A DNA stretch of 55,242 bases from the IMG/VR virus record IMGVR_UViG_3300047160_036265. One strand, 5' to 3'. The notes under the pieces were generated by a model. It searched no databases and was not told the DNA's origin. It worked only from the letters and a program-made list of their open reading frames with translations. Source of the DNA: a virus. Positions 1,657 through 53,810 of the stretch are shown here, piece after piece. The position numbers and the translations under genes are program-made. Numbering within the stretch: the stretch's first letter is position 1; each line of letters starts with the position of its first letter.

Positions 1657-2178
1657 CTAGTTCAAACTGAAGCCGGGAATGCTGGTGATAACGGGGCAGA
1701 TATTGTCCCACAGTTCGTCGGGATCGCCGTCGAGGACAAGCTCCGGGGTGGCATCGACTACATGCCAGGCCCCGTGCGCGATCTCGCTTTCAAGCTGCCC
1801 AGGTGCCCAGCCGGCGTAGCCAGTGACCATCTTGAAGCGGTGGTCGTCCATCGGGATGGTGTTGATGATCTTGTTGAGGATTTTGGGCGTGCCGTGCCAC
1901 AGTCCAGGCACGATCTTGTACTTTTCCTTGCCGAGACGTTCGATTCCGTGAAGCATCGTGATCCGGCTGTTGATGTCGCAGGGTCCGCCGACATACATCG
2001 GGAACGGGTTCTTGGGGCATTGCCCACAGGTGCATTCCACTTCCTCGGCCTTGCGGTTGACTGTCACCCCGTAGGCCCCCTGCTCTTCGTCATGCTCCAG
2101 CATGTAGATCACCGCACGGGCGAATGGGGTGTCCATCATGCGGATCGAGGCGACCAGGAACTTGTTCTTCAGGTTCAT
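1657..2178 (-). CDS. YqgE/AlgH family (UPF0301) protein with a Cys-rich insertion
   Basis: N-terminal FLVAS...ARAVIYMLEHDEEGAYGVTVNR matches the YqgE/AlgH signature. Strong GGAGG Shine-Dalgarno. Own TTTACA-N17-TATAAT promoter. Confidence 0.7.
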   Translation of the reverse strand: MNLKNKFLVASIRMMDTPFARAVIYMLEHDEEQGAYGVTVNRKAEEVECTCGQCPKNPFPMYVGGPCDINSRITMLHGIERLGKEKYKIVPGLWHGTPKILNKIINTIPMDDHRFKMVTGYAGWAPGQLESEIAHGAWHVVDATPELVLDGDPDELWDNICPVITSIPGFSLN

Positions 2179-2212
2179 CTCTTCCTCCTTTGACTTCCCC
2201 TATTATAGTTAG

Positions 2213-2230
2213 GCGTCTTGTGGTTGTAAA
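2213..2230 (-). promoter_or_regulatory. sigma-70-like promoter P1 (TTTACAACC-N-TATAAT)
   Basis: Minus strand reads TTTACA + 17 nt + TATAAT, about 30 nt upstream of the ATG at 2178. Confidence 0.65.
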
Positions 2231-2264: not shown

Positions 2265-2337
2265 CGCCCCCAGGGGGAATCGAACCCCCGTAGTCACAGT
2301 TTTAGAGACTGCCGCTACACCACTCAGCTATGGGGGC
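2265..2337 (-). tRNA. amber suppressor tRNA, anticodon CUA, tRNA-Trp-like body
   Basis: 73-nt cloverleaf read by eye. Acceptor stem GCCCCCA/TGGGGGC, discriminator G. T-arm GGGGG-TTCGATT-CCCCC. Anticodon stem GCAGT/ACTGT with loop CUCUAAA, so anticodon CUA with U33 and A37. This is one base away from the tRNA-Trp loop CUCCAAA. CCA is not encoded. Has its own promoter. Confidence 0.7.
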
Positions 2338-2349
2338 ATCGTATACTGT

Positions 2350-2379
2350 ATTGTACGGCAGCAGGCGACTGGTTGTAAA
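2350..2379 (-). promoter_or_regulatory. promoter P2 driving the tRNA
   Basis: TTTACAACC + 18 nt + TACAAT. The -10 ends about 12 nt before the mature tRNA 5' end. Confidence 0.65.
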
Positions 2380-2383
2380 CCAA

Positions 2384-2668
2384 CTATTTCCGGCGCTTGC
2401 CGGGCCACTTGTTGTGCAGGTCGTGGGCGATCTTGCCCTCGCCCACGGTGATCGGCGGGATTAGGCCCTGAGCCGCAAGGTCTTTGGCAATCGCGTCTTC
2501 CGTCTCCCCAAAGAAGAGGAGGATTTCACCGTCCCAGGGCAGGCCAAGCTCGGAGAACTTGACATGGATCGGCTTGCCCTGCTTGAGCAGTTCGACGTTG
2601 GCGGCGGTGATGCCAAGTCCGATCAGCTTGCTGCCGCTGTTAGGGTTGGTGGCAGTGAATTTTATCAT
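2384..2668 (-). CDS. hypothetical protein (about 94 aa)
   Basis: Internal ATG (MIKFTATNPN...) with GAGGA Shine-Dalgarno. The upstream part of the track ORF is low-complexity other-frame sequence. Confidence 0.4.
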   Translation of the reverse strand: MIKFTATNPNSGSKLIGLGITAANVELLKQGKPIHVKFSELGLPWDGEILLFFGETEDAIAKDLAAQGLIPPITVGEGKIAHDLHNKWPGKRRK

Positions 2669-9557: not shown

Positions 9558-11597
9558 TTACTGCCGGTCTTCGACGTTATCGCCCTCGACCCAACTGACG
9601 CTGAGGGCCTTGAGGGCTTCGGTCAGGGCGTCCTCGGCGGCTTTGACGGCCTTGGTGAGCGCCGGAACCTTCTCGCGTTCCTGCTTCTTCAACTCCGTCT
9701 CGTTCGCCGCCAACTCCTGCCGCCAGGTATCGACCTGAGTGCCGCTGCCACCGGACTTGGACACCAGTTCCAGCTTGCGGGCCTGCTCCCGGCTGAGAAC
9801 CTGGACTTCCTGCTGCCCCTCCTGCAACTCCTCCTGGGTCTTGAGCAGCTTCTCGTACAGGTCGATCACGGCGATGATCTTCTTGGACTTGAGCAGCTTC
9901 TCCGGCGGGTTATCGACCTCGATGACGGTGCGCAGGAACCACTGGAAGTTGTTGACCGTGTTGTGGTAGAGAACCACGGTCTGGCTGACGGGCTGGGTTT
10001 CCCGGACGCGAACCTCCAACTGGCCCGCCCCACCAGCGCCCTTGGCCGGCAGCTTGCAGGGGATACGCAGGCCGTTGTCCAGGGCCGTGGTGTTGCCGGT
10101 GTTGCCACGAACCTCGAAGGTGGTGCGGGCATCACCGATGACCCGGTTATGCTCGATCTCCAGGTTGAAACCTTCGGGCTTGTTGTTGACGAAGCGATAC
10201 ACCTTCTCGTGGGTGTTCACGTTGTCGATCACCACCGTGCCCTTGGTGATCTCGATGCGGGCGCGACGGCTCGCCGTGGTGCCGGCGTTGGAGCCGGGCG
10301 GGTTGATGAACACCGTCACGCCGTTCTCCGTGGCGTGCGGCAGCACGCGATCCTGGCCGGGCTTCGTGGCCTCCAGCACCACCTGCCCCTGGTAGCAGTC
10401 GTCCAGGTACACCGTGCAACTGCCTTTGCCCAGGGAATACTCGGTGGTGTTGGTGAACTTCACCGCACGGAACGGACGCTTCGGGTTGTCCGGCTCCTTA
10501 TAGAGCAGCAGCGCCTCCCCCTTGGCCTTGGACTGGAACAGGGGCAGGACCGCCGAACGCTTGCGCCCGATATTGACGGGGTTCTTGCTGGTGTAGATGG
10601 CGAAGTCCCCCACATCCGTCGCCGTGGCCCCGGCCTGGGCCGCACGGGGCTGGGCGGGAGCCGGAGCGGCAGCCGGCATGACACCACCAGCGAACTGACG
10701 CTTGGCGACCGCCCCACGGCCACGCAGGGCTTCCGGCGCACCACCGGAATCATCCAAGGACGCGACCGCCGCCTCGGCGTTCCACTGCGGGATGTCTTCC
10801 TGCGCACCGACAGCGCCGGTAGCGGTATCGCTGATGATATTGACCCGCTGACGCCGGGGCTTGCGCACGTCGGCCAGGTCCGTCTCGAAGGTGTTGGGAT
10901 CGCCGGTGGCCACCGACACGATGTAGTCGTTCAGGTCTTCGTCGGTCGGGTTGTCCACCTTGGCGCTGCACTCGATCTCGCACTCGCCCTTCTTGAGCCG
11001 CAACTGGTAGACCGGCTGCCAGGCCGAGAACGGGATTGTCAACTGGTAGATGACTTCGCCCTCGGCCTTGCCCTCCGGGGCGATGCCGATGCTGACGTTG
11101 GTGCTTTCCGGGTTGATGGCCGAGAAGTTGCGCTCCAGCGCCTTCTTGATCTCCTGCTGCACCGTGGCGTCGAGGAACTTGATGCTCACTTCGTCATTGA
11201 AGGAACGGTAGGCGTTGGCCTCGTCGTAGATGGCCACACGGAACCGCTCCACCACGGCATCGCCAACCCGTTCCTCGTAGGGCTGGATGCCCAGCAGGTT
11301 GCCCTTGGTGGTGGGGCCATCACGCTCGATGATCTCAACCTTGGACCCGCTCAGCTTCGTCGCCAGGTCTTGGGTGACGTTGCGGGGGTCGATGGTCAGC
11401 ACCTTGTCGGCGTCGGTGACGGGGTAGGAGGCCGGCTCGGTGATCTGGACGTTGCCGAAAAAGGCGAGGGTGGCGAGGGCGTCGGCCAGGCTGGTGCGCT
11501 TGACCGGAATCTGCACGGTGGTCTTCTCCTTCACCGGCGGCAGGTGCCGGGTGAAGTGGGCCATGCCGTTGGAGAAAATCGTCAGGTAATTGCTCAT
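9558..11597 (-). CDS. large protein (about 680 aa) with C-terminal coiled coil; possibly DUF4139/TIGR02231-like
   Basis: ATG (MSNYLT...) with GGAG Shine-Dalgarno. The N-terminal pattern LTIFSNGMAHFTR resembles the DUF4140/4139 family. Family assignment is weak. Confidence 0.5.
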   Translation of the reverse strand: MSNYLTIFSNGMAHFTRHLPPVKEKTTVQIPVKRTSLADALATLAFFGNVQITEPASYPVTDADKVLTIDPRNVTQDLATKLSGSKVEIIERDGPTTKGNLLGIQPYEERVGDAVVERFRVAIYDEANAYRSFNDEVSIKFLDATVQQEIKKALERNFSAINPESTNVSIGIAPEGKAEGEVIYQLTIPFSAWQPVYQLRLKKGECEIECSAKVDNPTDEDLNDYIVSVATGDPNTFETDLADVRKPRRQRVNIISDTATGAVGAQEDIPQWNAEAAVASLDDSGGAPEALRGRGAVAKRQFAGGVMPAAAPAPAQPRAAQAGATATDVGDFAIYTSKNPVNIGRKRSAVLPLFQSKAKGEALLLYKEPDNPKRPFRAVKFTNTTEYSLGKGSCTVYLDDCYQGQVVLEATKPGQDRVLPHATENGVTVFINPPGSNAGTTASRRARIEITKGTVVIDNVNTHEKVYRFVNNKPEGFNLEIEHNRVIGDARTTFEVRGNTGNTTALDNGLRIPCKLPAKGAGGAGQLEVRVRETQPVSQTVVLYHNTVNNFQWFLRTVIEVDNPPEKLLKSKKIIAVIDLYEKLLKTQEELQEGQQEVQVLSREQARKLELVSKSGGSGTQVDTWRQELAANETELKKQEREKVPALTKAVKAAEDALTEALKALSVSWVEGDNVEDRQ

Positions 11598-16008: not shown

Positions 16009-16671
16009 TCATTCCCCATATTGTTCCCATTCTTGGCCCCAGCGCTTTTTCAATTCTGCGATGTAGGCGTCGGTTTTTATTTTCCGCATCCACAGCTTGT
16101 GGCCGGTGCCGCCCTTGCACACCACGCCCTCGAACACCGGGTAGCGGCCTTCGCGCACATCACGAATAAACTTCTCGGTGAGCGTCCCTTCATAAATAAC
16201 CGACGAAACGGGCAGGTGTCCGAAAGATTTCAGAAATTCCCAGGCATCCACCAGGCCCTTGCGGTGCAGGTTGACATCAATAAGCACCACGTCCTTCGGG
16301 TCATTATGCTCGGCCTGGATGACCATGTGCTTGGGATCATGCTGACCGCTGAAGGAGTTGGGGCCGAAGAATTCACAATAGGCGATGCCGTCCGTGATCT
16401 TAGGGTACTTGTCCCGGAGGACTTTCGCAACCTGTTCCCCATATTTTTCTTGGAAGAGGCCCACGGCGCAGCCATATTCCGGGTCAGCGGCGTCAAAGGT
16501 ACGGCGGCGGGTGCCGCAGAGCCACCAGCCCTTCTTCTTATTCCACTCGAAGCGCAGGTTGGACCCGTCGTATTTGTAAAAAGCAATACAGGGCTGCCCC
16601 AGGGGCGGCTTGACCCTCGCTCCGTCGATACTCCAGTATTCCTTCATGTGCAACCACCACTCGGCCTTCAC
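16009..16671 (-). CDS. Rnl2-family RNA ligase-like nucleotidyltransferase (220 aa)
   Basis: Motif I KYDGSN (KxDG), motif III CEFFG, motif IV EGVVCKG, motif V KIK. ATGA-coupled to the upstream small ORF. Confidence 0.65.
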   Translation of the reverse strand: MKAEWWLHMKEYWSIDGARVKPPLGQPCIAFYKYDGSNLRFEWNKKKGWWLCGTRRRTFDAADPEYGCAVGLFQEKYGEQVAKVLRDKYPKITDGIAYCEFFGPNSFSGQHDPKHMVIQAEHNDPKDVVLIDVNLHRKGLVDAWEFLKSFGHLPVSSVIYEGTLTEKFIRDVREGRYPVFEGVVCKGGTGHKLWMRKIKTDAYIAELKKRWGQEWEQYGE

Positions 16672-19695: not shown

Positions 19696-20622
19696 TCACA
19701 CTTCGCTGTTGCCGATGATGTCGCCGGCAATGCCCTTCAGCCGCTCGACCTTCTCGGCGGGGGTGTCATTCAAGCCCAGCTTCGCCTTCCCGACGAAGTG
19801 GACCGGGCTGAACACCCGAAAGAACGCCCGGACGTGATCCAGGGCCTTGGCGTAGACCGGGACGCGCCCGATGACGCCCTTCTTGACCGTGACCTGCGGG
19901 GTCGTCACCAGGACCAGCTTGCGCTCTTCCGGCGTCAACTCGTTCTGGACGAACCCCATGATCTTCTTGGCGACCGCCTTCTCCTCGTCGGTCGCTTCCT
20001 TGAAGTCCTTGCCTTCCTGGTGGCCGAACAGCAACTCGTTGAAGGCCCGCAGGCTCTTCACCGGGCGCATCTCGACCTCGTTCGCCAGGAACGCCTCGGC
20101 CTGGTCCTGCGGCACGCCCATCTCCACCAGCAGCCGGACGGTCGCCGTCTGGAGGGTTTCGCCTTCAGCGGGTTCGGGCAGGTGGATGTTGTTCTTGGTG
20201 AAGCGGTCCTGCACCTGGAACAGCGCCTCCATGTCGCGCTGGCCGGGCGCACCGTCCTTGTCCAGCTTCAGGGCCGGGTTCGTGGGCTGGGCCTTGTACT
20301 TCCACAGGCTTTCCTCCCACAGTGCGAACACCACACGGTCAACCTCGTCCTCGCTGTTCTCGGCGCGCTTCTGGACGATCTCGGACAGCACCTTGGCCCC
20401 GACGAAGCGCTTGAACGCCTCGATGACGTGCGGGGGCAGGGGGACTTCGGGCCGGTCGGCCTTCTTGCCCTTCTCCTTCACCGTGGCGGAACCGTCGTCG
20501 CCCAGGGCGTCGAACAGGTCGTCACCAGCGGGGGCAGCGCCGCCACGGACAGCGCCGGGAATAGAGTGGGTGGGCTGGGAGCCAGTGGCCGGGGTGGCGG
20601 GGGTGGAACGGGAACGAGCCAT
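19696..20622 (-). CDS. hypothetical protein (308 aa), monocistronic unit
   Basis: ATG with GGAGG Shine-Dalgarno. Its own P4 promoter lies upstream and a strong terminator downstream. The N-terminus is disordered, rich in Ala/Pro/Gly. Confidence 0.6.
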   Translation of the reverse strand: MARSRSTPATPATGSQPTHSIPGAVRGGAAPAGDDLFDALGDDGSATVKEKGKKADRPEVPLPPHVIEAFKRFVGAKVLSEIVQKRAENSEDEVDRVVFALWEESLWKYKAQPTNPALKLDKDGAPGQRDMEALFQVQDRFTKNNIHLPEPAEGETLQTATVRLLVEMGVPQDQAEAFLANEVEMRPVKSLRAFNELLFGHQEGKDFKEATDEEKAVAKKIMGFVQNELTPEERKLVLVTTPQVTVKKGVIGRVPVYAKALDHVRAFFRVFSPVHFVGKAKLGLNDTPAEKVERLKGIAGDIIGNSEV

Positions 20623-21110: not shown

Positions 21111-22127
21111 TCAGTTCACGTTGAGTTTGTCGCAAAAACGCTCGGCCACGTCAAATACCACGTCAAACTCTTTGAGTCCGTCCACGAGGTTGCGGGGAAA
21201 TATCGAGCTTCCGTGCAGAGCGCCCAGAAGACCCGCCAGCATCGACCCGTTACTGTCCGTGTCGCCGCCCGCCGATACCACGTCGTACAGCGACTCGATG
21301 CTAAGCGGGTTTCGCACGAAGAACATATAGGTGAAGGGCAGGGAGTCGTAGATGTAGCAACTGCCCTTCAAGTCGGTGACGATCTTGCCGGCGTCGTATT
21401 CCTCGTACTGGTAGAGCAACTTCATGCGGGCGTGCAGGTCGTCGTCGCCCTCATCGGCGCTTTTCTTGAATCGCTTGTCCTTGCCCATCAGGGCGGCACC
21501 GACCACGCAGTTGATAAAGGAGTCCACCCGAAAGTCGGCGGGGTCGCTGGTCAGGCATTTGAAAATTGCGAATGCCTGGCACAACCCACTTTGGACTGCC
21601 ATGCGGGCGTTATGGGTCATGCGGGTGTAGTTTTCAATGTCCTGCACGCTCTGACCCCAGGCCGGCTCCTCGCACTGCGGGTTGGTGATCGCCATGTATG
21701 CGCCTAGGGGCGCAATCTTCATGGGGATACCGTTGCCGGTGCCACGTTTGGGTTCCTTGGTCTTGCCGGAAGTGGTCCAGGGTACGCCTTGGGCCAGGCG
21801 AGCCACGGCCTCCTTGGTGGTCTTGCCCCAGCCCCGGACGCTCTTCTTATATTCCTCGACGTGCCAGGCAGCGATGGCATTCAGGTCCAGGCAGCCTGTC
21901 TGAATGATACCCTCGGCGGTAGCCTTGGTCAACTGCCAGTCATCGGTGGTGGTGCCCCGATGGTCGTCATCGAAATACTTGTGGCTGGAGCAGTCGAGGT
22001 AGTCGGTGATGCGCCCGTAGCGCTTCTGAATGCCCTCCAGGGTGTTGCTCTCGGTGGGCTTGCCCAGAGCATCGCCAATAGCAATGCCCAGGAACATGCC
22101 AGTAATACGGTCACGAGTAATCGTCAT
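21111..22127 (-). CDS. ADP-ribosylglycohydrolase (ARH/DraG family)
   Basis: N-terminal RDRITGMFLGIAIGDALGKPTE and C-terminal GGDTDSNGSMLAGLLGALHG, the ARH family Mg-binding signatures. Confidence 0.8.
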   Translation of the reverse strand: MTITRDRITGMFLGIAIGDALGKPTESNTLEGIQKRYGRITDYLDCSSHKYFDDDHRGTTTDDWQLTKATAEGIIQTGCLDLNAIAAWHVEEYKKSVRGWGKTTKEAVARLAQGVPWTTSGKTKEPKRGTGNGIPMKIAPLGAYMAITNPQCEEPAWGQSVQDIENYTRMTHNARMAVQSGLCQAFAIFKCLTSDPADFRVDSFINCVVGAALMGKDKRFKKSADEGDDDLHARMKLLYQYEEYDAGKIVTDLKGSCYIYDSLPFTYMFFVRNPLSIESLYDVVSAGGDTDSNGSMLAGLLGALHGSSIFPRNLVDGLKEFDVVFDVAERFCDKLNVN

Positions 22128-22657: not shown

Positions 22658-24073
22658 CTAACCAGTTTTCTCCGGCAACGGAAGGGTGACAATAAATTCG
22701 CTGCCCTCCCCCAACTTGCTGGTGACGGTAATGGTGCCGCTATGGGCCTCCACAATAGAGCGGACCAAGCTCAGACCGATACCCATACCGCTACCATTTT
22801 GGGTATCAACGATTTTGTGAGCCTGCACGAACAAGTCAAAAATATGGGGCAGGATGTCTTCGGGGATGCCGGGGCCGTTGTCTGTGACCTTGATCTCAAT
22901 GATGGCCTTGATGACCTGGACGGTAAGGCTTATAAGACTGCCGCTAGGTGCAAATTTAAGGGCGTTGCCGATCAAGTTAAAAAACACCTGCTGCCAGCGG
23001 GTGGGGTCGGCATAGATGAGCAAGGGTTCTGCCGGGATGCGCACCTTGAGAATTTGATTTTTCTTTTCGGCGGTAATATAAAGCGTTTCCAGCGCGTTGC
23101 GAACGGCGTGTTGCAGGATCATATCCTGCTTGTGAATCGGCAAGCGGCCCGTGGTGATCCGGGATACGTCGAGCAGGTCATCTACCAGGCGGGTGAGATG
23201 GACGGCTTGCCGCTCAATAATATCCAGGTGCCTCTGAGTGTCGATACCTTTTCGCAGAACCGGCAGCGAAGTGAAAATCGGCGCAAGCGGGTTCCGCAGT
23301 TCGTGGCTCAGCATGGCGATGTACTCGTCCTTGCGATTGTCCTCTGTGCGCAGTTTTTCTTCGGCCTGCTTGCGCTTGGTGATCTCCTCGGAGAACATGA
23401 TGATGCCGCCGATCTCGTCCACCGAACAGTACCAGGGACGCTTTTCCCAGCGCAGCCAGTGGACCATGCCGTTGGGGCGCTCAATATAGTCCTCGTCGCT
23501 GGAGACAGTTTCACCGCCCAGCGCCTTATAAATCGCCGTCTTCCAGCGTTCGGGGATTTCCGGGAATACGTCAAAGTGCCGTCTGCCGATAAGCGAGCGG
23601 CCAGCCTCGCGCTCGGCTGGAAAGAAGTCAACGAGCCAGCGGCGACTAACCGCCACATAGCGCAACTCAGTATCCAAGATGGCGATGGCGGACGGCGAGT
23701 GTTCGATGAGGAGGTTCAGAGTAGTGCGCAGGCGGTTGTAGTCAGTGATGTCATTGTTGACTTCGACAACTTGTACGGACTCGCCCTTGGTGTAAAGGGC
23801 CTGATGGCTGGCAACGGTGAGCCGGCGTCCGTCCTTGCGGGTGTGGATAAGTTCCCCGCTCCACCTGCCGTCGCGCAGAATAGTGGCGGCAATATCCTCG
23901 GCGGGAAGGGCGTGGAAGATCGTTTTGAGGAGTGAATGACTGATCTGGCCAACCGCCTCCTCCTTGGTGAAGCCGTACAGCAGGGCCGCTCCGGCGGACC
24001 AAAACTGGATACGACCGTCGATGTCTCGAATTAACACGTTAGCCACATCGAGAACATCACTCACCGATTTCAT
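22658..24073 (-). CDS. PAS-domain sensor histidine kinase (471 aa)
   Basis: Two PAS-like segments, the HisKA H-box SHELRNPL, and HATPase N/G boxes (NLIGNALKF, DNGPGI, GSGMGIGL). Confidence 0.8.
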   Translation of the reverse strand: MKSVSDVLDVANVLIRDIDGRIQFWSAGAALLYGFTKEEAVGQISHSLLKTIFHALPAEDIAATILRDGRWSGELIHTRKDGRRLTVASHQALYTKGESVQVVEVNNDITDYNRLRTTLNLLIEHSPSAIAILDTELRYVAVSRRWLVDFFPAEREAGRSLIGRRHFDVFPEIPERWKTAIYKALGGETVSSDEDYIERPNGMVHWLRWEKRPWYCSVDEIGGIIMFSEEITKRKQAEEKLRTEDNRKDEYIAMLSHELRNPLAPIFTSLPVLRKGIDTQRHLDIIERQAVHLTRLVDDLLDVSRITTGRLPIHKQDMILQHAVRNALETLYITAEKKNQILKVRIPAEPLLIYADPTRWQQVFFNLIGNALKFAPSGSLISLTVQVIKAIIEIKVTDNGPGIPEDILPHIFDLFVQAHKIVDTQNGSGMGIGLSLVRSIVEAHSGTITVTSKLGEGSEFIVTLPLPEKTG

Positions 24074-24134: not shown

Positions 24135-24704
24135 TCAGATCGCGCCAAGACACTTGTACATGAACAGCACGGGCCAGGTCTTGGCGGAAAACTTGTTGCG
24201 GCTCTCGCACAGGGAACAAACCCCGGCGTAATCCAGCAGGTGGACTTCGATTTCCTCCGTAGCCTCGTTGCCGTCATGGTTGACGGTGCCTTCGCACTCG
24301 CAGAATACCAATACTACAGACTCGTCGGAAAGTCCAGCAGAAGATATGAGAGATGGACTGATTTTGATAATTCCGGTGAGGGTCAGGCCCGTTTCTTCCT
24401 TCAGTTCGCGCTTGGCATCCTGCACAGCATCGGCCTCGCACAGCCCGGCAGGGAAAGCGTACTCATAGTCGTTGAGGGGAATGCGAAACTCACGGAGGAC
24501 CACAAGGCGGCGTTGGCCCTGCTCGTTGACGTGGATGGGTACGATGATAACGGCATCGGGCTTGAGTTGCCCAGAGCCGTTGGCGGGTTCTTTTTTGCGC
24601 GAGGCGAAAATCCAGTCGCCTTCTTTATTGCGGTTCTTCCAGTGGACGGAGAACAAATTGAGCCAGCGGAAGTCGGTGAGCTTCTTAGGGGGAGTCACGT
24701 CCAT
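24135..24704 (-). CDS. Nudix hydrolase (ADP-ribose pyrophosphatase-like; 189 aa)
   Basis: Nudix box ...GLCEADAVQDAKRELKEETGL (REx2EExGL). AGGAGG Shine-Dalgarno. Confidence 0.75.
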   Translation of the reverse strand: MDVTPPKKLTDFRWLNLFSVHWKNRNKEGDWIFASRKKEPANGSGQLKPDAVIIVPIHVNEQGQRRLVVLREFRIPLNDYEYAFPAGLCEADAVQDAKRELKEETGLTLTGIIKISPSLISSAGLSDESVVLVFCECEGTVNHDGNEATEEIEVHLLDYAGVCSLCESRNKFSAKTWPVLFMYKCLGAI

Positions 24705-24964: not shown

Positions 24965-26050
24965 TCAGCCGTCCACATCCATGTCGGCAAATAGCCGGTT
25001 GGGGTACTTGACCTTGTACCCCTCCAGCAGACGGGCCTTGATCCCCTCGGTTACGTCCTTCTTGTCGAAGGCCGTCATGAGCGACCCGAAAATCTGGGGA
25101 TATTCGGCCTTGGCAAGCCAGGCATAATCCTTGCGCAGTTTTTCGGGGCCTGGATCGCCTACGGACGCTACCTCCATTATAGCAGCAGCCACCTTTAACA
25201 CACGGCTGGTTTCGTGCAGAAGGTCAAGCTGCGCCTCGGTATAGATTTCCTTCAGTTTCGCCTGGTGACGATCTGGTGCCTTGGCGATCAGGTCGTCCAT
25301 CAACCCGTCAAAGACGACTTCATAAAGCCGGTAGGCCGGACGCATGAGCGCATCAACAGCCTTGTGTCGCTCCAGATACCAGTTGCACTTCGCCTTGACC
25401 CACAGGCCATTTTCCAGAACGACGACGTAGCCTTCAAATTCCTCCCGCTCCAGGTGATCGAAGAGATCAGCGAACGCGAAGTCATAGCGGATCGCGCTGT
25501 CGGGGTAGGTTGGGCAGTGGTCGTAGTCTCCGGTGGCACGGCAACGGGAATGCAGGTACACCAGACGAGAGCGTGGGTATTCTACGACAATTTGGTTGTG
25601 GGGGGCCACAAACTCAAAGATCGGAGTATAACCTCGCCGTACCTCCTTAACAATGTCGTCCACCATACCCAATTTCCGTGCCAAACGCAACGCCTCCTGG
25701 GCCTGTGGCGTGTCGCAAGACATCCTGGTGGACGCACGCAGGTCGCCCTTCCATTCAAAGAAATGGATCATCGACCCGTCCAGCTTCTCGTACACCTTTC
25801 CATTCAGGTGGCAGAGCTTGTGGTACTGCGTCTCGTCCGTCTGGCCGACGTTGAAAAACTTGTGCAGGGGCAGGGAGACAATTTGCTCGGTGGCCTCGTC
25901 AAAGGTGATGCCCCGGAATTCCCGCCGAATGCCGTCGAACGACCCAGGAATCTGGATGAGGTAGTTTACGCAAACCAGGCCGTCGTACCGCTTTACGAGG
26001 AATTCCTCACGGCCTTCGAGGGCGACCAGGGCTTCGGAGAGGGTGAACAT
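24965..26050 (-). CDS. T4 RnlA-like RNA ligase 1 (about 361 aa)
   Basis: FRGITFDE...PLHKFFN, VYEKLDGSM (KxDG motif I) and TPIFEFVAPHNQIVVEY, collinear with T4 Rnl1. Starts at MFTLSE immediately downstream of P5. The -10 lies 6 nt from the ATG, so the mRNA looks leaderless. Confidence 0.8.
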   Translation of the reverse strand: MFTLSEALVALEGREEFLVKRYDGLVCVNYLIQIPGSFDGIRREFRGITFDEATEQIVSLPLHKFFNVGQTDETQYHKLCHLNGKVYEKLDGSMIHFFEWKGDLRASTRMSCDTPQAQEALRLARKLGMVDDIVKEVRRGYTPIFEFVAPHNQIVVEYPRSRLVYLHSRCRATGDYDHCPTYPDSAIRYDFAFADLFDHLEREEFEGYVVVLENGLWVKAKCNWYLERHKAVDALMRPAYRLYEVVFDGLMDDLIAKAPDRHQAKLKEIYTEAQLDLLHETSRVLKVAAAIMEVASVGDPGPEKLRKDYAWLAKAEYPQIFGSLMTAFDKKDVTEGIKARLLEGYKVKYPNRLFADMDVDG

Positions 26051-26056
26051 TTTGGT

Positions 26057-26086
26057 ATTGTACAGCCGGAACGAGGCGGTTGTAAA
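26057..26086 (-). promoter_or_regulatory. promoter P5 (leaderless rnlA-like transcript)
   Basis: TTTACAACC + 18 nt + TACAAT. The predicted start site coincides with the A of the ATG. Confidence 0.6.
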
Positions 26087-31599: not shown

Positions 31600-33225
31600 T
31601 CACGCCGCAAATTCCACGAGGTAGCGAAGCTCGAACTGCTCCCGGCTGAAGATGATCCACTCGTTGTTCATGACCTGGGAGTGACCGCCCTTGCCGAAGA
31701 CGCAGTGATGCCCAGCCGGCGGCGAGGTATAACCCCGTGGGCCGGGGGCGACGTGCGGACGGCCCAGGGCCACGTCACCAGCGAACATGAAAGCTTCACG
31801 GCCCCGAACGGAACCACCGCCGGACGACCAGTAGCTTCCACGCAGGGACGTGTAGCCGGCGGACTTTTTCCAGTCGTCCGCCCAATACAATCCCGGCCCG
31901 AACATGGCCCCGGTGATGACCACGCCGACCAACTGGTGCGGCAGGCGCAGGTTTTCACGGAGGATGCCGGTGACGTTCACGGAACGGGTTCCGTGGAACA
32001 AGAGGCCGGTGTTGCTCTCCCGGAAGCGGCGGATGTCGTTGTTATCTTGCAAATCCGCCCGCTCGGCAGGCTGGAACAGGGGCCGCTCGTGAATCGTGGG
32101 CCGGCTGGCGACGATCTTTTCCTGGCTGCCGACCAGCTTGGCCCGGTCGCCGGTGCGCTCGACTCGCCACGCATTCTTGATGCGCATGGCACCGACGCCT
32201 CCGTGACGGTTGGCGGTGGCACGAGGCCACCAGCCATAGAGCCACTTGCCCAGGTCGGTCTTCGGGTCGATCCACTCCATCCACACCGGCATCCCGCCGA
32301 AGGGGTCGTGCTGGTGGGACACGTCATCGACGGCAGCGGCAACACCCAGAGCCGCCTCGAACGCATCCAGGTCGGCCTGCCACAGCAGAATATTGCTGGT
32401 ATTGAGAATCCACTCCTGGGGCGGGCAGTGGAGCCGCTTTTTCTTCGGGATGCGACCGTACATGAGCGCCGTCAGGTGGTTCAAGTCGGCATCGGCCACC
32501 TGATCGTCCACGTTGTCACCCACGACGATGAGGCGCTTCTGGGCTTCGGTGAGGAAGTCACGGGCCTCATCAATCGCCGCCTGAGTGGGGATCGAGTCGT
32601 CGGCCATGCTGCCACGGGTATATTGCACCGTGGCCACGTTCAGGTCACGCAGCAGAGAATGGGTCTGGCTGTCCACCGGACGGCCCGCCGCCTTGATGAC
32701 CTTCTTCTTGGCGCTCTTCTTGTCGTCGGGCTTATCATCCGGTTTGGAATCGGGCTTCTTGGGAGCGCCTTCGCTGTGTTTGATGGTACGGGCATCCGGC
32801 AGGCCGGTGCTACGGGTGGCCATGCTGCGGACGAGGTAGCAGTCCTTGCCGGCACGGGCACGCAACACCCGCTTGCTGGCGACCGTAACCCACTCGCCCC
32901 GCTTGTCGTTCTTGTCGTGCAACTGGCTGGCGAACTCCCGCTGGGCGTCCGACTCACTGGAGCAAACCACGAACTGGAAGTTGGGGTTCTTGGCCCCGGT
33001 GCGCCCCCACTCGAAGTACACAGCCCACTGGCCGCTCGTCTTATGCTTGACGATGGCCCCGTGGTAATACTTGTTGGAGTCCTTGCCGTCCTGCGTGAAG
33101 CAGCCCATGTCTGCGATCTTGCAGTTGTCGAAATCGCCGTCCGTAGTGGCGGGCGGGCCGAAGCACTGCCAGTCGTTCGGGCCGGACCCGTTAGGGTAGG
33201 TGTTCTTTTCGATCTTCGATCCCAT
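31600..33225 (-). CDS. PARP-like ADP-ribosyltransferase (WGR domain plus H-Y-E catalytic domain; about 541 aa)
   Basis: N-terminal WAVYFEWGRTG (WGR). C-terminal LLFHGTRSVNVTGIL, GPGLYWADDWKKSAGY and NEWIIFSREQFELRYLVEF, matching the PARP H-G-S/T, Y and catalytic-E blocks. ATG with GGAGA Shine-Dalgarno, downstream of P8. Confidence 0.8.
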   Translation of the reverse strand: MGSKIEKNTYPNGSGPNDWQCFGPPATTDGDFDNCKIADMGCFTQDGKDSNKYYHGAIVKHKTSGQWAVYFEWGRTGAKNPNFQFVVCSSESDAQREFASQLHDKNDKRGEWVTVASKRVLRARAGKDCYLVRSMATRSTGLPDARTIKHSEGAPKKPDSKPDDKPDDKKSAKKKVIKAAGRPVDSQTHSLLRDLNVATVQYTRGSMADDSIPTQAAIDEARDFLTEAQKRLIVVGDNVDDQVADADLNHLTALMYGRIPKKKRLHCPPQEWILNTSNILLWQADLDAFEAALGVAAAVDDVSHQHDPFGGMPVWMEWIDPKTDLGKWLYGWWPRATANRHGGVGAMRIKNAWRVERTGDRAKLVGSQEKIVASRPTIHERPLFQPAERADLQDNNDIRRFRESNTGLLFHGTRSVNVTGILRENLRLPHQLVGVVITGAMFGPGLYWADDWKKSAGYTSLRGSYWSSGGGSVRGREAFMFAGDVALGRPHVAPGPRGYTSPPAGHHCVFGKGGHSQVMNNEWIIFSREQFELRYLVEFAA

Positions 33226-35709: not shown

Positions 35710-35922
35710 CTAGTTGACATTCCCCGATTCTACGTCGGGATTCTTCGGTTGTAAAGCATCATTGACGTGCGGCTCACACCAACAGCCGTGGATGCGGATG
35801 CCTCCGCAGTTACAACAATATTGGTTGAGGAAGCCCCGGATGAATTCGAGTCGGTCTTCGGGGCGGAAGTGCTTCTGCCGTTCCAGAAACTCATCGTAAA
35901 GCTGCTTGGCTGACTCCAGCAT
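35710..35922 (-). CDS. Cys-rich small protein (70 aa)
   Basis: CCNCGGIRIHGCWCEPH motif. ATG with GGAGGGG Shine-Dalgarno. Confidence 0.5.
   Translation of the reverse strand: MLESAKQLYDEFLERQKHFRPEDRLEFIRGFLNQYCCNCGGIRIHGCWCEPHVNDALQPKNPDVESGNVN
35727..35755 (-). promoter_or_regulatory. promoter P9 (inside the 3' end of the upstream gene)
   Basis: TTTACAACC + 17 nt + TAGAAT. Confidence 0.55.
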
Positions 35923-36562
35923 GATCCCCTCCGATCTGGTTCGGGACTATGGCCTGTTCCATCCAGTGAACGGAAGTCTGGACGTGGTTGGGGCGAACAT
36001 ATTTGGCGACGTGACGGGCGAAATCTCCATAAGCGAAGCCCTGGCAGGTCCGCACCACATAACCCTCGCAGGTATCGCCAAAGCAAGACCGGCGGGGCCA
36101 GAGCGATTTGATGGCCTTTTCGTCCCAGATGCCTCGGTACAGTACAGGAACGGTAGGAATGTCAAAAAGTCCAGCCCACTCCACCGTCTCATCCCAGGCC
36201 AGGCAGCCGTTGCTGCCATCATATACGCCGATCAGGTAAAAATACGCTGTGAGCCGGTCGTAGAAAATGCTGTGCTTGGCGTAGACGTTTTCGCCGCAAA
36301 GCCGCCAGCCCTCCGGGATGTTGTGTCGGATCGAGGCGTGGAACTGCTTGAGGAGATTGCGAGACGGGTGGTTCTTGGAGTTGAGGGACCGGGCGTGGTA
36401 GTGGATGCAATACATGGACGTGCATTCACCGTCCATTTTTTCCGTCACCACAACCTCTTGGCCTGCAAAATGATCCACGTCGGCCAGAACCTTGTCGTCC
36501 CGGTCGGATTTCTCGCTCCAGGGCAGGTGCGGTGTTCGGGGATATTTGTACAGGCCGTTCAT
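35891..36562 (-). CDS. RNA ligase family protein (PF09414-like; 223 aa)
   Basis: N-terminal YKYPRTPHL, motif I EKMDGE (KxDG), motif III GENVYAKH, motif IV EGYVVR, motif V KYVRP. Confidence 0.7.
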   Translation of the reverse strand: MNGLYKYPRTPHLPWSEKSDRDDKVLADVDHFAGQEVVVTEKMDGECTSMYCIHYHARSLNSKNHPSRNLLKQFHASIRHNIPEGWRLCGENVYAKHSIFYDRLTAYFYLIGVYDGSNGCLAWDETVEWAGLFDIPTVPVLYRGIWDEKAIKSLWPRRSCFGDTCEGYVVRTCQGFAYGDFARHVAKYVRPNHVQTSVHWMEQAIVPNQIGGDHAGVSQAALR

Positions 36563-36583: not shown

Positions 36584-37396
36584 TTACTGTCCGGCGGGCT
36601 GAGTTGTTAAGTCCCGTTCACGCACGATGGGCCGGTCAACGCTCCAGTGTTCCGGCAGGAATTGGGGGTCCATCGTCTCGATGAAGTGCGCCCGCCACAT
36701 TTTCACAAACGCATCCATGCTGCCGTAAGTTTCGCTGATTTTACCAACCACCGTGGGGCCATGCTCGGCATAGTCCTCGGTATAAACAACGGATTCCAGC
36801 GAATCGGCACGCTCAATATCCTCCAGGGTGATGTCGTGCTTCTGATAGAAGTCGCGCAAGGTCTGAAGCAGTTCCTCGCGCCGACCAGGAGGAATACGGT
36901 CCCAATGTTTTGCCAGGGCGCAGGCGTGCTTTTTCAATTTAACAATGGCTTTATCGCAATACCAGCCGGTGCCGGTCAGGGGAATCTGATGCTCAACGGC
37001 CAACTTTTCCTTCACCCTGGTAGCTACTTCCTCATAACGGTCGTGACAGGCCACACACATGAGGAGAACGTCATGATAGTTGTGGTCCTTGAGGACCGCC
37101 GGGAAGTAACGACGGTAGCAATAGGGGATGATATGATGCCGGGTGAGTTCCACCATCGACCCGCAGACGACACATTCGTTGCGCTTGCTGGTCAGATAAT
37201 ACTGATCGCCACTATGGCCAGGGCCGTTTGGCTGGAAGCGCAGTTGAATTGTCGGCGGGCTGTCCTTCAGCTTGTCGGCAAGGCCCCGCTCCAAGTACCA
37301 GTCGATCTTGTCCTGGTTGCAGTGGAACATGATTTCGCCCTCCGGGCTAAGGACGTGGCAGTTCCCGTATAATTTGCCCTTCAGTGGCCGTGTCAC
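36584..37396 (-). CDS. HNH-motif protein (270 aa), GTG start
   Basis: CVVCGS...LTRHHIIPY...CVACH (HNH-like). GTG immediately after the upstream TAG stop. Confidence 0.5.
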   Translation of the reverse strand: MTRPLKGKLYGNCHVLSPEGEIMFHCNQDKIDWYLERGLADKLKDSPPTIQLRFQPNGPGHSGDQYYLTSKRNECVVCGSMVELTRHHIIPYCYRRYFPAVLKDHNYHDVLLMCVACHDRYEEVATRVKEKLAVEHQIPLTGTGWYCDKAIVKLKKHACALAKHWDRIPPGRREELLQTLRDFYQKHDITLEDIERADSLESVVYTEDYAEHGPTVVGKISETYGSMDAFVKMWRAHFIETMDPQFLPEHWSVDRPIVRERDLTTQPAGQ

Positions 37397-38395
37397 CTAT
37401 ATACTCCGTTTCCTCGCCGCATTCAGCCAGGACAGGTAGAACTTCTCCATGTGAATGTCAATGAAGGCGTCGTCCCGGCCCCCTTCGACCTTACGGTAAG
37501 GGGCAAAAACCTCGTCCCAAAGGGCCTGGCTCTCCTCACAATATAAGGCCAGGAAGTCCTTCTCTTGGCAGGGTTCCATGTCGCGCAGATTGCACGAACG
37601 GTCGAAGAACTTGATGACCTTGGCTTCCCACGAGACGGACTGCAAATGCTCCCGGTCCATCTTCTTGCGTTCGGCCCGGCGCAACTTCGACCCCTTGCTG
37701 GGGTTGGTCAGTTCCAGCACCAGCTTCAAAACGTCCTCGCCCGCTGTACTGATAATGGCCGAGTGCGGAACGCCGGGGCAGTCCTCCACAACATCATGGA
37801 GCCACGCCGCCTTGCCCATGCGGAGCCACTGGTCCAGAGGGAGATCACGCCGCCACCAGTTGATGCGATCAAATACCTGCGACGGGTGCAGGATGAAATC
37901 GCCCCCACCATATTTCCGCTTCTGGCCTTCATGGGCGCAATAAGCCAGGAGAATGGTATTTCGCAGGCTCTTGTCCATGAACATGCCATGAACGAACATA
38001 TGACAGTTGACGCAGGTGCCGTCGCCGCTGAGGTTCCAACAAGTGTTGCGCCAATCGTGGTTGCACGCCAGCATCTCGGTGAGACGGGTGTGGGCCATCC
38101 GTTCGGCGGCGATCCAGCCCCCGGCCTTGTCGCCGGAGCTTCCGCCCATCACGCTGAAGCGGGCGCGATGGATGGCCTTGTTGTGCCAAAAATCGAGGGC
38201 GGTGATATGTTCTGGGACCGGCACGAACACGGTAATGCCGCAGTTGGGATCGTTGGGGTTCTCGCTCAGAACGTATTCCAGCCCCAGCTTGCGGTTATAG
38301 GAGCAGCGGATGTCAGCATCCTCCGGCCAATCGAGTTGGCACTGGTATTTACCGCCTGGGGGTGGACTGTTGATGATGGGAACGAGGGGTTTCAT
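37397..38395 (-). CDS. RelA/SpoT-type HD-domain protein (small alarmone hydrolase-like) with N-terminal Cys-rich domain (about 332 aa)
   Basis: AHEGQKR...FILHP, AAWLHDVVEDC and FDRSCNLRDM, matching the (p)ppGpp hydrolase HD motifs. ATG (MKPLVP...) overlaps the upstream TAA (TAATG). Confidence 0.7.
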   Translation of the reverse strand: MKPLVPIINSPPPGGKYQCQLDWPEDADIRCSYNRKLGLEYVLSENPNDPNCGITVFVPVPEHITALDFWHNKAIHRARFSVMGGSSGDKAGGWIAAERMAHTRLTEMLACNHDWRNTCWNLSGDGTCVNCHMFVHGMFMDKSLRNTILLAYCAHEGQKRKYGGGDFILHPSQVFDRINWWRRDLPLDQWLRMGKAAWLHDVVEDCPGVPHSAIISTAGEDVLKLVLELTNPSKGSKLRRAERKKMDREHLQSVSWEAKVIKFFDRSCNLRDMEPCQEKDFLALYCEESQALWDEVFAPYRKVEGGRDDAFIDIHMEKFYLSWLNAARKRSI

Positions 38396-41122: not shown

Positions 41123-41152
41123 ATTATATGCTAAATCGAGATGGTTGTAAAG
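41123..41152 (-). promoter_or_regulatory. promoter P10 (sigma factor gene)
   Basis: TTTACAACC + 17 nt + TATAAT. Confidence 0.65.
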
Positions 41153-41168
41153 TGCGAAATATAAGGAT

Positions 41169-41576
41169 TTACGGAACGGGCACCAAGAAAGAGTTGAGCG
41201 CCCGGACGATATTCCGCACCTTATATCCCTTGGGGTGGTCCACGACCACCGTTATTTCCTGATCGGCCACGGCCCAGGGCTTGCCGGCGGCGTTGCTTTC
41301 GATGATGACGTAGACCATAGAGTTGTGGGTATAGCGGCGGCTATAACCCAGGCGGTCCCACAGTTCCTTGGCCTGCGGGGATTGGAAAATAAAAAACTCG
41401 TTGCGATCCAGCCTGGAGCGACCCCGCAAGCTAGGTGCGCCGTTAGGCGGGTCGTCATACTCCACCACCATTTCCGGCCAGTGGGCTTTGCACAGACCGA
41501 GAATGCCCTTCTCGATCTGTGCATATTTCTTGCCTTCCGGCCAGGTGTAGAGCAGATCGTAACCGCCGATTTCCAT
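41169..41576 (-). CDS. hypothetical protein (135 aa)
   Basis: ATG overlaps the upstream stop. Confidence 0.5.
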   Translation of the reverse strand: MEIGGYDLLYTWPEGKKYAQIEKGILGLCKAHWPEMVVEYDDPPNGAPSLRGRSRLDRNEFFIFQSPQAKELWDRLGYSRRYTHNSMVYVIIESNAAGKPWAVADQEITVVVDHPKGYKVRNIVRALNSFLVPVP

Positions 41577-53781: not shown

Positions 53782-53810
53782 ATTGTAGAACGGGACTTCA
53801 TCGTTGTAAA
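53782..53810 (-). promoter_or_regulatory. promoter P13
   Basis: TTTACAACG + 17 nt + TACAAT. Confidence 0.65.

What the first reader, a model, noticed from the sequence alone, without database searches (positions are those of the whole stretch)
2265..2379. Amber-suppressor tRNA(CUA) with a tRNA-Trp-like body and a dedicated consensus promoter
The cloverleaf is canonical except for the anticodon loop CUCUAAA, one substitution from the tRNA-Trp loop CUCCAAA; discriminator G73 also fits Trp. A suppressor tRNA on a strong promoter implies TAG readthrough in some genes or host genes. That could be programmed recoding of late genes, or decoding of TAG-containing host or phage transcripts. Every ORF in this window is intact under the standard code, so any recoding would be elsewhere in the genome, or the tRNA acts as a translation-level switch.
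Basis: seen in the sequence. Interest (0 to 1): 0.8.

Follow-up and report, generated by a model that had tools for sequence, protein, structure and literature searches.

The report
Conserved amber-suppressor tRNA in soil phage
A real tRNA gene that reads the stop codon UAG sits alone behind its own promoter in what looks like a very large soil phage and is kept in all its known relatives, but nothing in about 95 kb of sequence needs it, which is the same unsolved puzzle already reported for cultured giant phages.

Summary
A canonical 73-nt tRNA with anticodon CUA lies at 2265-2337 on the minus strand (Rfam 60.3 bits; ARAGORN). It sits behind a sigma-70-type promoter (TTTACA-18-TACAAT, 2350-2379) that belongs to a five-member promoter family in the window.

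The window looks like a non-structural region of a novel, probably jumbo, soil phage: 79 of about 80 genes are on one strand and most are ORFans. Ten related soil contigs all carry a CUA tRNA at the same position, upstream of an AlgH-like gene, and two carry tandem pairs. 14 of 21 stem pairs show compensatory changes while CUA is invariant, so the suppressor is under selection.

The body is a mosaic. G73, the T arm and the anticodon arm are Trp-like, but the acceptor stem is Arg/Glu-like: 0 of 121 cellular tRNAs with the same stem are Trp. The inserted amino acid is unresolved.

No TAG recoding is seen in the 55-kb window or in 40 kb of a relative. TAG ends 14-19% of genes, and in-frame junctions are at chance. 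No virion genes were reached, so late-gene recoding remains untested.

Cultured jumbo phages (XacN1, RsoM2USA) show the same orphan CUA suppressor. This is a new member of a known kind.

The parts
2265..2337 (-). tRNA gene with anticodon CUA (amber suppressor type). It is 73 nt, has discriminator G73 and a 6-nt variable loop, and does not encode the 3' CCA.
   Evidence: ARAGORN and Rfam RF00005 at 60.3 bits over the full model. It is 100% identical in four independent soil assemblies. Syntenic orthologues are present in 10 related loci. 14 of 21 stem pairs change on both sides while pairing is kept, and 97.6% of cells are paired.
2350..2379 (-). Dedicated sigma-70-type promoter of the tRNA: -35 TTTACA (2379-2374), an 18-nt spacer and -10 TACAAT (2355-2350). 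The -10 ends 12 nt before tRNA position 1.
   Evidence: Promoter scan, 10 of 12 positions. It belongs to a 5-copy family with 0 expected by chance. It is conserved upstream of the tRNA in relatives L049, L056, L052 and L053.
1657..2178 (-). AlgH/YqgE-like (DUF179) gene immediately downstream of the tRNA. It is the conserved syntenic partner of the tRNA and ends in TAG in this phage.
   Evidence: Pfam PF02622 at 1.9e-31. Phage-clade homologues at 60-83% identity always have a CUA tRNA just upstream. The TAG stop is not conserved: relatives have TGA or TAA, and L057/L059 keep TAG.
2202..2230 (-). Separate promoter of the AlgH-like gene (TTTACA-17-TATAAT, 11 of 12 positions), lying between the tRNA and that gene.
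   Evidence: Conserved in 5 of 6 relatives checked.
2384..2668 (-). Upstream 94-aa ORFan gene. Its TAG stop (2384-2386) abuts the tRNA promoter. The synteny with this gene is conserved.
   Evidence: Gene model. Orthologues are called in L001-L003, L049 and L059.
26057..26086 (-). Another copy of the same promoter family, upstream of the Rnl1-type RNA ligase gene.
41123..41151 (-). Another copy of the same promoter family, upstream of the phage sigma-70-family factor gene.
53782..53810 (-). Another copy of the same promoter family.
37397..37399 (-). The only in-frame TAG in the window that joins two coding segments (an HD-domain gene and a downstream ORF). It was tested as a readthrough candidate and rejected.
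   Evidence: Searches found it. Searches show the downstream ORF is an HNH endonuclease with its own GGAGG-7 nt-ATG start 23 codons after the TAG. The junction rate for TAG (1 of 11) equals that for TGA (4 of 49) and TAA (3 of 20).

Best explanation
This is a functional amber-suppressor tRNA gene of a novel, probably jumbo, soil phage lineage.

Shown: the gene is transcribed from its own sigma-70-type promoter, of the same class that drives neighbouring non-structural genes. It has been kept by selection, with CUA unchanged, throughout a clade of related phages.

Inferred: the primary transcript has a leader of roughly 6 nt and no encoded CCA. It would therefore be matured by RNase P and 3' trimming, and CCA would be added by a CCA-adding enzyme, none of which is recognisable in the window. 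It would be aminoacylated by a synthetase that reads G73 together with the invariant acceptor pairs G1-C72, C2-G71, C4-G69 and C5-G68. The candidates are Glu, Gln and Trp by host enzymes, or a phage-encoded synthetase. It would then decode UAG in competition with host release factor 1.

TAG is an ordinary stop codon in all 95 kb examined. The most likely mode of action is therefore partial read-through of UAG at one or a few targets outside the sequence seen (phage or host genes), not wholesale reassignment of TAG. This is the same situation reported for cultured standard-code jumbo phages that carry CUA tRNAs.
For: The tRNA is genuine.

The promoter is real and belongs to a family. It is conserved in relatives.

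Selection is evident. Ten related loci all carry a CUA tRNA upstream of the AlgH-like gene, with AlgH-like identity 60-83% and locus GC 41-62%. On eight distinct sequences, 97.6% of cells pair. 14 of 21 pairs change on both sides, against 6.5 +/- 1.7 in shuffles and at most 4 in the slid controls. The anticodon is invariant. Two relatives carry two different CUA tRNAs in tandem.

The loop CUCUAAA (A36-A37-A38) is the loop I recall for the efficient E. coli suppressors supF and su7 (from memory, not tested).

The standard code is used. In the window the stops are TGA 49, TAA 20 and TAG 11, and extensions after TAG have negative coding scores and the same length distribution as after TGA or TAA. 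ORF coverage does not improve when TAG is read as sense. In-frame junctions are at chance in the window and in 40 kb of a relative.

There is precedent. XacN1 has two CUA suppressor tRNAs, and in-silico read-through of its 18 amber stops found no targets (PMC5852040). RsoM2USA has one (PMC8504454). Annotated Sup(CTA) tRNAs exist in Sinorhizobium phage Phosso and Stenotrophomonas phage RAS14.
Against: No target of suppression was found, so the 'partial read-through of a few targets' step is inference.

Long-term conservation, the dedicated promoter and tandem duplication would also be expected if many late genes contained in-frame TAG. No capsid, portal, terminase, tail or lysis gene was reached in 95 kb, so those genes could not be checked.

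The tRNA is co-expressed (same promoter class) with genes that end in TAG. An efficient suppressor would extend 14-19% of proteins, which looks costly.

The phage assignment itself rests on gene content and architecture, not on hallmark virion genes.

The aminoacylation identity is unresolved.
Confidence: 0.5

Rival explanations
1. Stage-specific recoding. The suppressor is made from an early or middle promoter. It then allows translation of late genes (virion and lysis), located outside the window, that carry in-frame TAG as a sense codon. This is the arrangement in TAG-recoded crAss-like, Lak and other gut phages.
For: It is the commonest documented role of phage CUA tRNAs, in which the suppressor lies in a standard-code region and recoding is concentrated in structural and lysis genes (10.1101/2021.08.26.457843; PMC13037316). 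Strong conservation of CUA, the dedicated promoter and tandem suppressors in two relatives fit a real decoding need. A relative encodes a TyrRS and a divergent ArgRS-like protein 12 kb from the tRNA, reminiscent of 'code-change modules'. No late genes have been seen yet, so the idea is untested.
Against: TAG is not depleted as a stop (11 of 80 and 11 of 59 genes), unlike the depletion proposed to precede recoding. The genome is 58% GC, whereas recoded phages are low-GC. There are no in-frame TAGs in 95 kb. Complete genomes of cultured jumbo phages with CUA tRNAs show no recoded genes (PMC5852040). No release factor gene is present in the window.
Confidence: 0.3
2. Host-directed or counter-defence role. 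The tRNA acts on host translation, for example by read-through of host TAG stops as part of takeover. Alternatively it serves as a substitute or decoy in the contest with host tRNA-targeting nucleases, and does not decode phage genes.
For: The window is rich in RNA-repair and anti-defence-type functions: three RNA-ligase-like proteins, a metallophosphoesterase, HD and NUDIX proteins, PARP, ADP-ribosylglycohydrolase and a PRPP-synthetase-like protein. The tRNA is solitary, not part of a codon-usage-matching array.
Against: There is no direct evidence. A CUA tRNA cannot replace any sense tRNA that a nuclease would deplete. Nothing links the AlgH-like partner gene to defence.
Confidence: 0.12
3. 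A non-functional or neutral passenger: a tRNA gene whose anticodon mutated to CUA and that persists without a role.
For: No target has been identified here or in the cultured analogues (PMC5852040).
Against: CUA and the cloverleaf are retained across ten diverged loci with abundant compensatory substitutions, and the promoter is conserved. A neutral gene would have decayed or its anticodon would have drifted.
Confidence: 0.03

Closest known systems
Orphan CUA suppressor tRNAs of cultured standard-code jumbo phages. These are Xanthomonas phage XacN1 (two copies), Ralstonia phage RsoM2USA, Sinorhizobium phage Phosso and Stenotrophomonas phages RAS14/CM1.
   Same: A canonical class-I tRNA with anticodon CUA, and the identical loop CUCUAAA in Phosso and RAS14. 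The phages are large and come from soil or plant-associated settings with fairly high GC. The genome uses TAG as a normal stop, and no read-through target has been identified (PMC5852040, PMC8504454).
   Different: In those phages the suppressor sits within or near large tRNA arrays. Here it is the only tRNA in 55 kb, and the only tRNA in 40 kb of the relative. It has a dedicated promoter and is locked in synteny with an AlgH-like gene across a clade. Body identity to those tRNAs is only about 70%, so common descent is not shown.
Suppressor tRNAs of TAG-recoded (code 15) phages: crAss-like, Lak and other gut clades (Borges et al.).
   Same: A phage-encoded CUA tRNA located in a standard-code-compatible, non-structural region. 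A large uncultured gut-phage family in IMG/VR even shares the exact anticodon stem GCAGU/ACUGU, G73, a GCNCCCA acceptor stem and a 6-nt variable loop.
   Different: Those genomes are low-GC, depleted in TAG stops and have in-frame TAG in late genes. Here GC is 58%, TAG ends 14% of genes and no in-frame TAG has been found. Whether late genes are recoded is unknown.
Classical E. coli amber suppressors supF (tRNA-Tyr CUA) and su7 (tRNA-Trp CUA).
   Same: The same anticodon loop CUCUAAA (from memory). The anticodon stem GCAG- resembles tRNA-Tyr, and G73 resembles tRNA-Trp.
   Different: Those are single-step laboratory mutants of host tRNAs. This one is a naturally maintained phage gene with a mosaic body and lacks the long variable arm of bacterial tRNA-Tyr.

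Membership tests
Canonical elongator tRNA (Rfam RF00005) | Cloverleaf with 7/4/5/5-bp stems that scores above the family threshold | tested here: met
   60.3 bits against a gathering score of 29, over the full model 1-71. ARAGORN also calls it.
Canonical elongator tRNA (Rfam RF00005) | Conserved tertiary nucleotides U8, A14, G18G19, U33, T54-Psi55-C56 and A58 | tested here: met
   Read directly from the sequence...CCA-UA-GCUG-AGUGGUG..., loop C-U-CUA-A-A, T loop UUCGAUU.
Canonical elongator tRNA (Rfam RF00005) | Stems supported by covariation among homologues | tested here: met
   14 of 21 pairs have changes on both sides. 0 of 500 shuffles reach the observed value. Slid controls give at most 4.
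Amber suppressor tRNA | Anticodon CUA at positions 34-36 in a 7-nt loop with U33 and a purine at position 37 | tested here: met
   CUA is invariant in all 10 related loci.
Amber suppressor tRNA | Aminoacylated and able to insert an amino acid at UAG in vivo | not testable with these tools
   This needs a reporter assay, mass spectrometry or acylation-sensitive tRNA sequencing.
   G73 is present. 7 of 7 reference tRNA-Trp have G73. G73 also occurs in Arg, Glu and Gln tRNAs.
   The stem here is GCCCCCA. Of 121 cellular tRNAs with this stem and G73, none is Trp: 54 Glu, 66 Arg, 1 Asn. Trp is not among the seven isotypes closest in acceptor stem.
   The T arm is closest to Trp (mean 0.81) and the anticodon stem ranks Trp second. 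Whole-body identity to Trp is 0.61-0.64, against 0.72 for a tRNA-Lys(CUU) and for other suppressors. The reference sets are small.
tRNA-Pyl (ARAGORN's label) | Atypical structure: 6-bp anticodon stem, 3-nt variable loop, short D loop without G18G19, and no canonical T-loop sequence | tested here: not met
   The tRNA has a 5-bp anticodon stem, a 6-nt variable loop, G18G19 and the T loop UUCGAUU. The features of tRNA-Pyl are quoted from established knowledge.
tRNA-Pyl (ARAGORN's label) | Accompanying pylS and pylBCD genes | tested here: not met
   None of the 40 largest window proteins matches such families. The small ORFs were not scanned.
TAG-recoded (code 15) phage | In-frame TAG at sense positions in genes, especially structural and lysis genes | tested here: inconclusive
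   None was found in the 55-kb window or in 40 kb of a relative. No structural or lysis genes lie in the sequence available.
TAG-recoded (code 15) phage | TAG rare or absent as a true stop, and better gene models when TAG is read as sense | tested here: not met
   TAG ends 11 of 80 and 11 of 59 genes. Reading TAG as sense lowers the total coding score.
Standard-code jumbo phage with orphan suppressor tRNA (XacN1 type) | A CUA tRNA together with standard-code genes and no identifiable read-through target | tested here: met
   compared with PMC5852040. This holds only for the part of the genome seen.
Standard-code jumbo phage with orphan suppressor tRNA (XacN1 type) | Phage genome larger than 200 kb with virion genes | tested here: inconclusive
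   There are no hallmark virion genes in 95 kb. The relative's contigs reach 72-151 kb. Gene content (Rnl1, aaRS, sigma factor, NAD enzymes, HNH endonucleases, ORFans, one-strand arrays) is typical of jumbo phages.

The most novel reading that the evidence does not exclude
The suppressor is half of a phage-encoded orthogonal pair. The clade's divergent ArgRS-like enzyme lacks most of the N-terminal D-loop-reading domain, and a TyrRS gene lies next to it. One of these would charge this solitary CUA tRNA, whose acceptor stem is Arg/Glu-type and invariant at pairs 2-71, 4-69 and 5-68. TAG would then be read as a sense codon in late genes not yet sequenced. That would be the first TAG reassignment in a high-GC soil phage, and possibly to an amino acid other than Gln.
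Probability: 0.07. Interest if true: 0.85.

Novelty: new member of a known kind. Interest (0 to 1): 0.4.

Why it matters
Why standard-code phages carry amber suppressors is an open question. It has been noted, and left unresolved, for cultured jumbo phages. This clade offers an unusually clean case. The tRNA is solitary, has its own promoter, is syntenically fixed, and shows clear purifying selection on CUA, in genomes where TAG is still a frequent stop. If complete genomes show recoded late genes, that would extend stop-codon recoding from low-GC gut phages to high-GC soil phages. If they do not, the clade is a good system in which to look for the real function of orphan suppressors. As it stands, the finding is a solid annotation and not a surprise.

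Tried and rejected
1. Programmed read-through at the only in-frame TAG junction (37397-37399, HD-domain gene followed by a 270-aa ORF). Rejected. The downstream ORF is an HNH endonuclease with its own GGAGG-7 nt-ATG start, and the junction frequency equals that for TGA and TAA.

2. A conserved read-through extension of the AlgH-like gene, which ends in TAG here. Rejected. Most relatives end it with TGA or TAA, and the extension has no coding signal.

3. tRNA-Pyl, ARAGORN's label. Rejected on structure.

4. Searching for the source genome or close relatives. Megablast of 8 kb against GenBank phages found nothing. Exact tRNA scans of IMG/VR, JGI metagenome contigs and GTDB genomes found nothing. 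IMG/VR protein scans with the AlgH-like and 679-aa proteins found nothing. tblastn of the 679-aa protein against phages found nothing.

5. Recoding signal around similar suppressors in IMG/VR and GenBank loci. There was no clear signal, and the loci are short and consist of tRNA arrays.

6. An apparent gene truncation in one strain of the relative (152 aa against 319 aa), which I suspected might be an in-frame stop. It is only an upstream indel.

7. Walking along the 72-kb relative contig to reach virion genes. I reached about 41 kb and found only ORFans, glycosyl- and methyl-transferases, two aaRS genes, an AAA ATPase and an ArdC-like protein.

8. Assigning the amino acid from the sequence. 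The arms point to different isotypes, so it stays unresolved.

9. Bacterial-looking contigs carrying the closest non-phage AlgH homologues (P0005 and P0006, 59-63% identity). They have no tRNA nearby. I did not pursue host identity.

Full report
OBSERVATION

The window contains exactly one tRNA gene. ARAGORN places it at 2264-2337 on the minus strand with anticodon cta. The Rfam tRNA model matches 2265-2337 (-) end to end at 60.3 bits, E = 1.3e-10.

Read, the RNA is GCCCCCA-UA-GCUG-AGUGGUG-UAGC-G-GCAGU-CUCUAAA-ACUGU-GACUAC-GGGGG-UUCGAUU-CCCCC-UGGGGGC-G. It has all the usual invariant nucleotides, discriminator G73 and a 6-nt variable loop. That loop length is rare: 3 of 175 class-I reference tRNAs have it. 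No CCA is encoded.

Twelve nucleotides upstream of position 1 ends a promoter, TTTACA-18 nt-TACAAT (2379-2350), matching 10 of 12 consensus positions. A second promoter, TTTACA-17-TATAAT (2230-2202), lies between the tRNA and the next gene. The motif TTTACAAC(C/G)...TA(T/C)AAT occurs five times in the window, always on the gene strand, against zero expected. The tRNA therefore has its own copy of a promoter class used by neighbouring genes.

CONTEXT

The window is 58% GC. A codon-bias gene model gives about 80 genes, 79 of them on the minus strand.

Recognisable products:
- a T4-type RNA ligase 1 and two further RNA-ligase-family proteins
- a metallophosphoesterase, an HD phosphohydrolase and a NUDIX protein
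- a PARP/WGR protein, an ADP-ribosylglycohydrolase and a PRPP-synthetase-like protein
- a sigma-70-family factor and two PAS histidine kinases
- ClpX-like and other AAA proteins, an M50 peptidase and an HNH endonuclease

Most other proteins match nothing. There is no DNA similarity to GenBank phages, and protein similarity is at most about 35%. No capsid, portal, terminase, tail or lysis gene was recognised.

The same sequence, 100% identical around the tRNA, occurs in four soil metagenome assemblies. I read this as a non-structural region of a novel, probably jumbo, soil phage. That is an inference from gene content and architecture.

IS TAG RECODED?

Stops in the window are TGA 49, TAA 20 and TAG 11. 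After each of the 11 TAG stops, the in-frame continuation has a negative coding score. The median length to the next stop is 28 codons, the same as after TGA (27) and TAA (34.5). Treating TAG as sense lowers the total coding score.

Two coding segments are joined in frame across TAG once in 11 cases, across TGA 4 times in 49 and across TAA 3 times in 20, which is chance level. The single TAG case is at 37397. The downstream ORF there is an HNH endonuclease with its own GGAGG-7 nt-ATG start 23 codons after the TAG, so it is an independent gene.

RELATIVES

The AlgH/YqgE-like gene just downstream of the tRNA has a distinct clade of homologues at 60-83% identity in soil metagenomes. Most bacterial AlgH proteins are at or below 40%.

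Every locus of that clade that could be read has a CUA tRNA immediately upstream of the AlgH-like gene. These are L049, L050 and L052-L059, with locus GC from 41 to 62%. L052 and L058 have two different CUA tRNAs in tandem.

On eight distinct sequences the cloverleaf is 97.6% paired. Fourteen of 21 pairs keep pairing through changes on both sides, against 6.5 +/- 1.7 in shuffles (0 of 500 reach the observed value) and at most 4 in the slid controls. The anticodon never changes. D and T stems vary freely, whereas acceptor pairs 2-71, 4-69 and 5-68 are invariant, and G1-C72 and G73 nearly so. That is the pattern expected for conserved synthetase identity elements (inference).

The tRNA promoter is recognisable in four of six relatives, and the AlgH-like promoter in five of six. 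The AlgH-like TAG stop is not conserved. The suppressor is therefore a selected, functional gene and not a decaying relic.

WALKING BEYOND THE WINDOW

One relative lies on a 71.8-kb JGI contig, and the same phage is on a 151-kb contig whose DNA could not be fetched. I read about 40 kb downstream of its tRNA, which corresponds to territory beyond the left edge of the window.

The CUA tRNA is the only tRNA there. TAG ends 11 of 59 called genes, and in-frame junctions are again at chance. No virion genes appear.

About 12 kb from the tRNA the relative encodes a bona fide bacterial-type TyrRS (TIGR00234, 286 bits against a cutoff of 114; best PDB match 1H3E). It also encodes a short, divergent ArgRS-like protein (TIGR00456, 77 bits against a cutoff of 262). 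That protein keeps the HVGH and KMKSRTG motifs and a DALR domain, but has only about 70 residues before HIGH, against about 120 in solved ArgRSs. Whether the phage of this window has these genes is unknown.

WHICH AMINO ACID?

Among phage tRNAs, the closest whole bodies are other phage suppressors (Phosso, RAS14, an uncultured 595-kb phage), all with loop CUCUAAA, and a tRNA-Lys(CUU). Trp references are no closer than Arg, Val or Ile.

They were Glu(UUC) 34, Glu(CUC) 20, Arg 66 and Asn 1, with no Trp, Lys or Gln. Bacterial Glu(CUC) tRNAs have loop CUCUCAA, one substitution from CUCUAAA.

Arm by arm, against 216 references that were not selected for matching the acceptor stem:
- the acceptor stem is closest to Arg and Glu
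- the T arm is closest to Trp
- the anticodon stem is closest to Ser, Trp and Tyr
- the D arm is generic
- G73 fits Trp (7 of 7) and some Arg, Glu and Gln, but not Lys (A73 in 19 of 20) or Tyr

The body is a mosaic, and the charging enzyme cannot be inferred from sequence.

COMPARISON WITH WHAT IS KNOWN

Phage CUA tRNAs are well documented in two settings. The first is TAG-recoded gut phages. There the suppressor lies in standard-code early regions and late genes carry in-frame TAG. The genomes are low-GC and depleted in TAG stops (jumbo phages). The second is cultured standard-code jumbo phages of soil or plant Proteobacteria. XacN1 has two CUA tRNAs, and read-through of all 18 amber stops revealed no target. 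RsoM2USA has one. Phosso and RAS14 carry annotated Sup(CTA) genes.

The present case matches the second setting on everything that could be tested. It fails two defining features of the first, TAG depletion and better gene models when TAG is sense. The decisive feature, in-frame TAG in late genes, remains untested.

What is particular here is that the tRNA is solitary and not part of an array, has a dedicated promoter, is fixed next to an AlgH-like gene across a clade, and is sometimes duplicated in tandem.

A large uncultured gut-phage family in IMG/VR carries a CUA tRNA with the same anticodon stem, G73, a similar acceptor stem and a 6-nt variable loop. Common descent is possible but not shown.

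VERDICT

The tRNA and its promoter are real and under selection (high confidence). My best explanation is a functional amber suppressor giving partial UAG read-through at targets outside the sequenced region, in a genome that otherwise uses the standard code (0.5). Recoding of unseen late genes is the main rival (0.3). A host-directed or counter-defence role (0.12) and a neutral passenger (0.03) follow.

It is a new member of a known kind. Interest is moderate. The case is a clean, conserved example of a recognised but unexplained phenomenon, and it becomes important only if complete genomes reveal recoding or a phage-encoded orthogonal synthetase/tRNA pair.

Noticed in passing
window 16009-16671, 24965-26050, 35891-36562, 45882-46592, 37397-38395, 24135-24704 (all minus strand): A concentration of RNA-repair-type genes. 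It comprises an Rnl1-type RNA ligase, a second strong RNA-ligase-family protein (phrog_24030, 9e-68), a weak third one, a metallophosphoesterase, an HD phosphohydrolase and a NUDIX protein. This may be a tRNA-repair or anti-anticodon-nuclease toolkit.
   Followed up: partly
window 31600-33225, 21111-22127, 53821-54798 (minus strand): A PARP catalytic domain with WGR domain, an ADP-ribosylglycohydrolase and a PRPP-synthetase-like protein. It is a set of ADP-ribose/NAD-metabolism genes like those described in jumbo phages. The PRPP-synthetase-like gene might be an NAD-reconstitution (Adps-like) enzyme.
   Followed up: no
window 22658-24073, 41576-43123, 40126-41091 (minus strand): Two PAS-domain histidine kinases (one a hybrid with a receiver domain) and a sigma-70-family factor lie inside a phage-like one-strand gene array. 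The sigma gene sits behind one of the TTTACAACC promoters. This is unusual sensory and regulatory content for a phage.
   Followed up: no
window 26048-26086 (minus strand): The -10 hexamer of the promoter upstream of the RNA ligase 1 gene ends only 6 nt before its ATG, and there is no Shine-Dalgarno sequence (ctgTACAATaccaaaATG). The transcript may be leaderless.
   Followed up: partly
window 36584-37330 (minus strand): An HNH endonuclease gene sits directly after, and in frame with, the HD-domain gene. It is probably a homing endonuclease. Relatives also carry HNH genes at variable positions.
   Followed up: yes
L182 13170-14597 and 14850-16004 (relative contig Ga0126369_10000040): A relative encodes a short, divergent ArgRS-like protein. 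It keeps the HVGH and KMKSRTG motifs but has a reduced N-terminal region. Next to it is a full bacterial-type TyrRS, about 12 kb from the suppressor tRNA, and no other tRNA lies in 40 kb.
   Followed up: partly
L052 66-215 and L058 300-450: Two relatives carry two different CUA tRNAs in tandem. The first copy is atypical: G instead of U at position 8, a G1-U72 pair, and A or U as discriminator. The second copy is canonical with G73.
   Followed up: partly
L014-L047 (IMG/VR), e.g. L014 6212-6246: A large family of uncultured human-gut phage contigs (70-145 kb, 44% GC) carries a CUA tRNA with the same anticodon stem, G73 and a 6-nt variable loop. Its D loop lacks the usual GG.
   Followed up: partly
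L048 1605-2111 and L051 2755-3261: The closest non-phage AlgH-like proteins (59-63% identity) lie in bacterial-looking, mixed-strand contigs from one ENA sample (ERZ25039519). They may mark the donor or host lineage of the phage gene.
   Followed up: no
window 9558-11597 and 19696-20622 (minus strand): The two genes with the strongest codon bias (GC3 0.87-0.90), of 679 and 308 aa, match no PHROG and no significant Pfam family. They are candidates for abundant, possibly virion, proteins. Structure prediction was not attempted.
   Followed up: no
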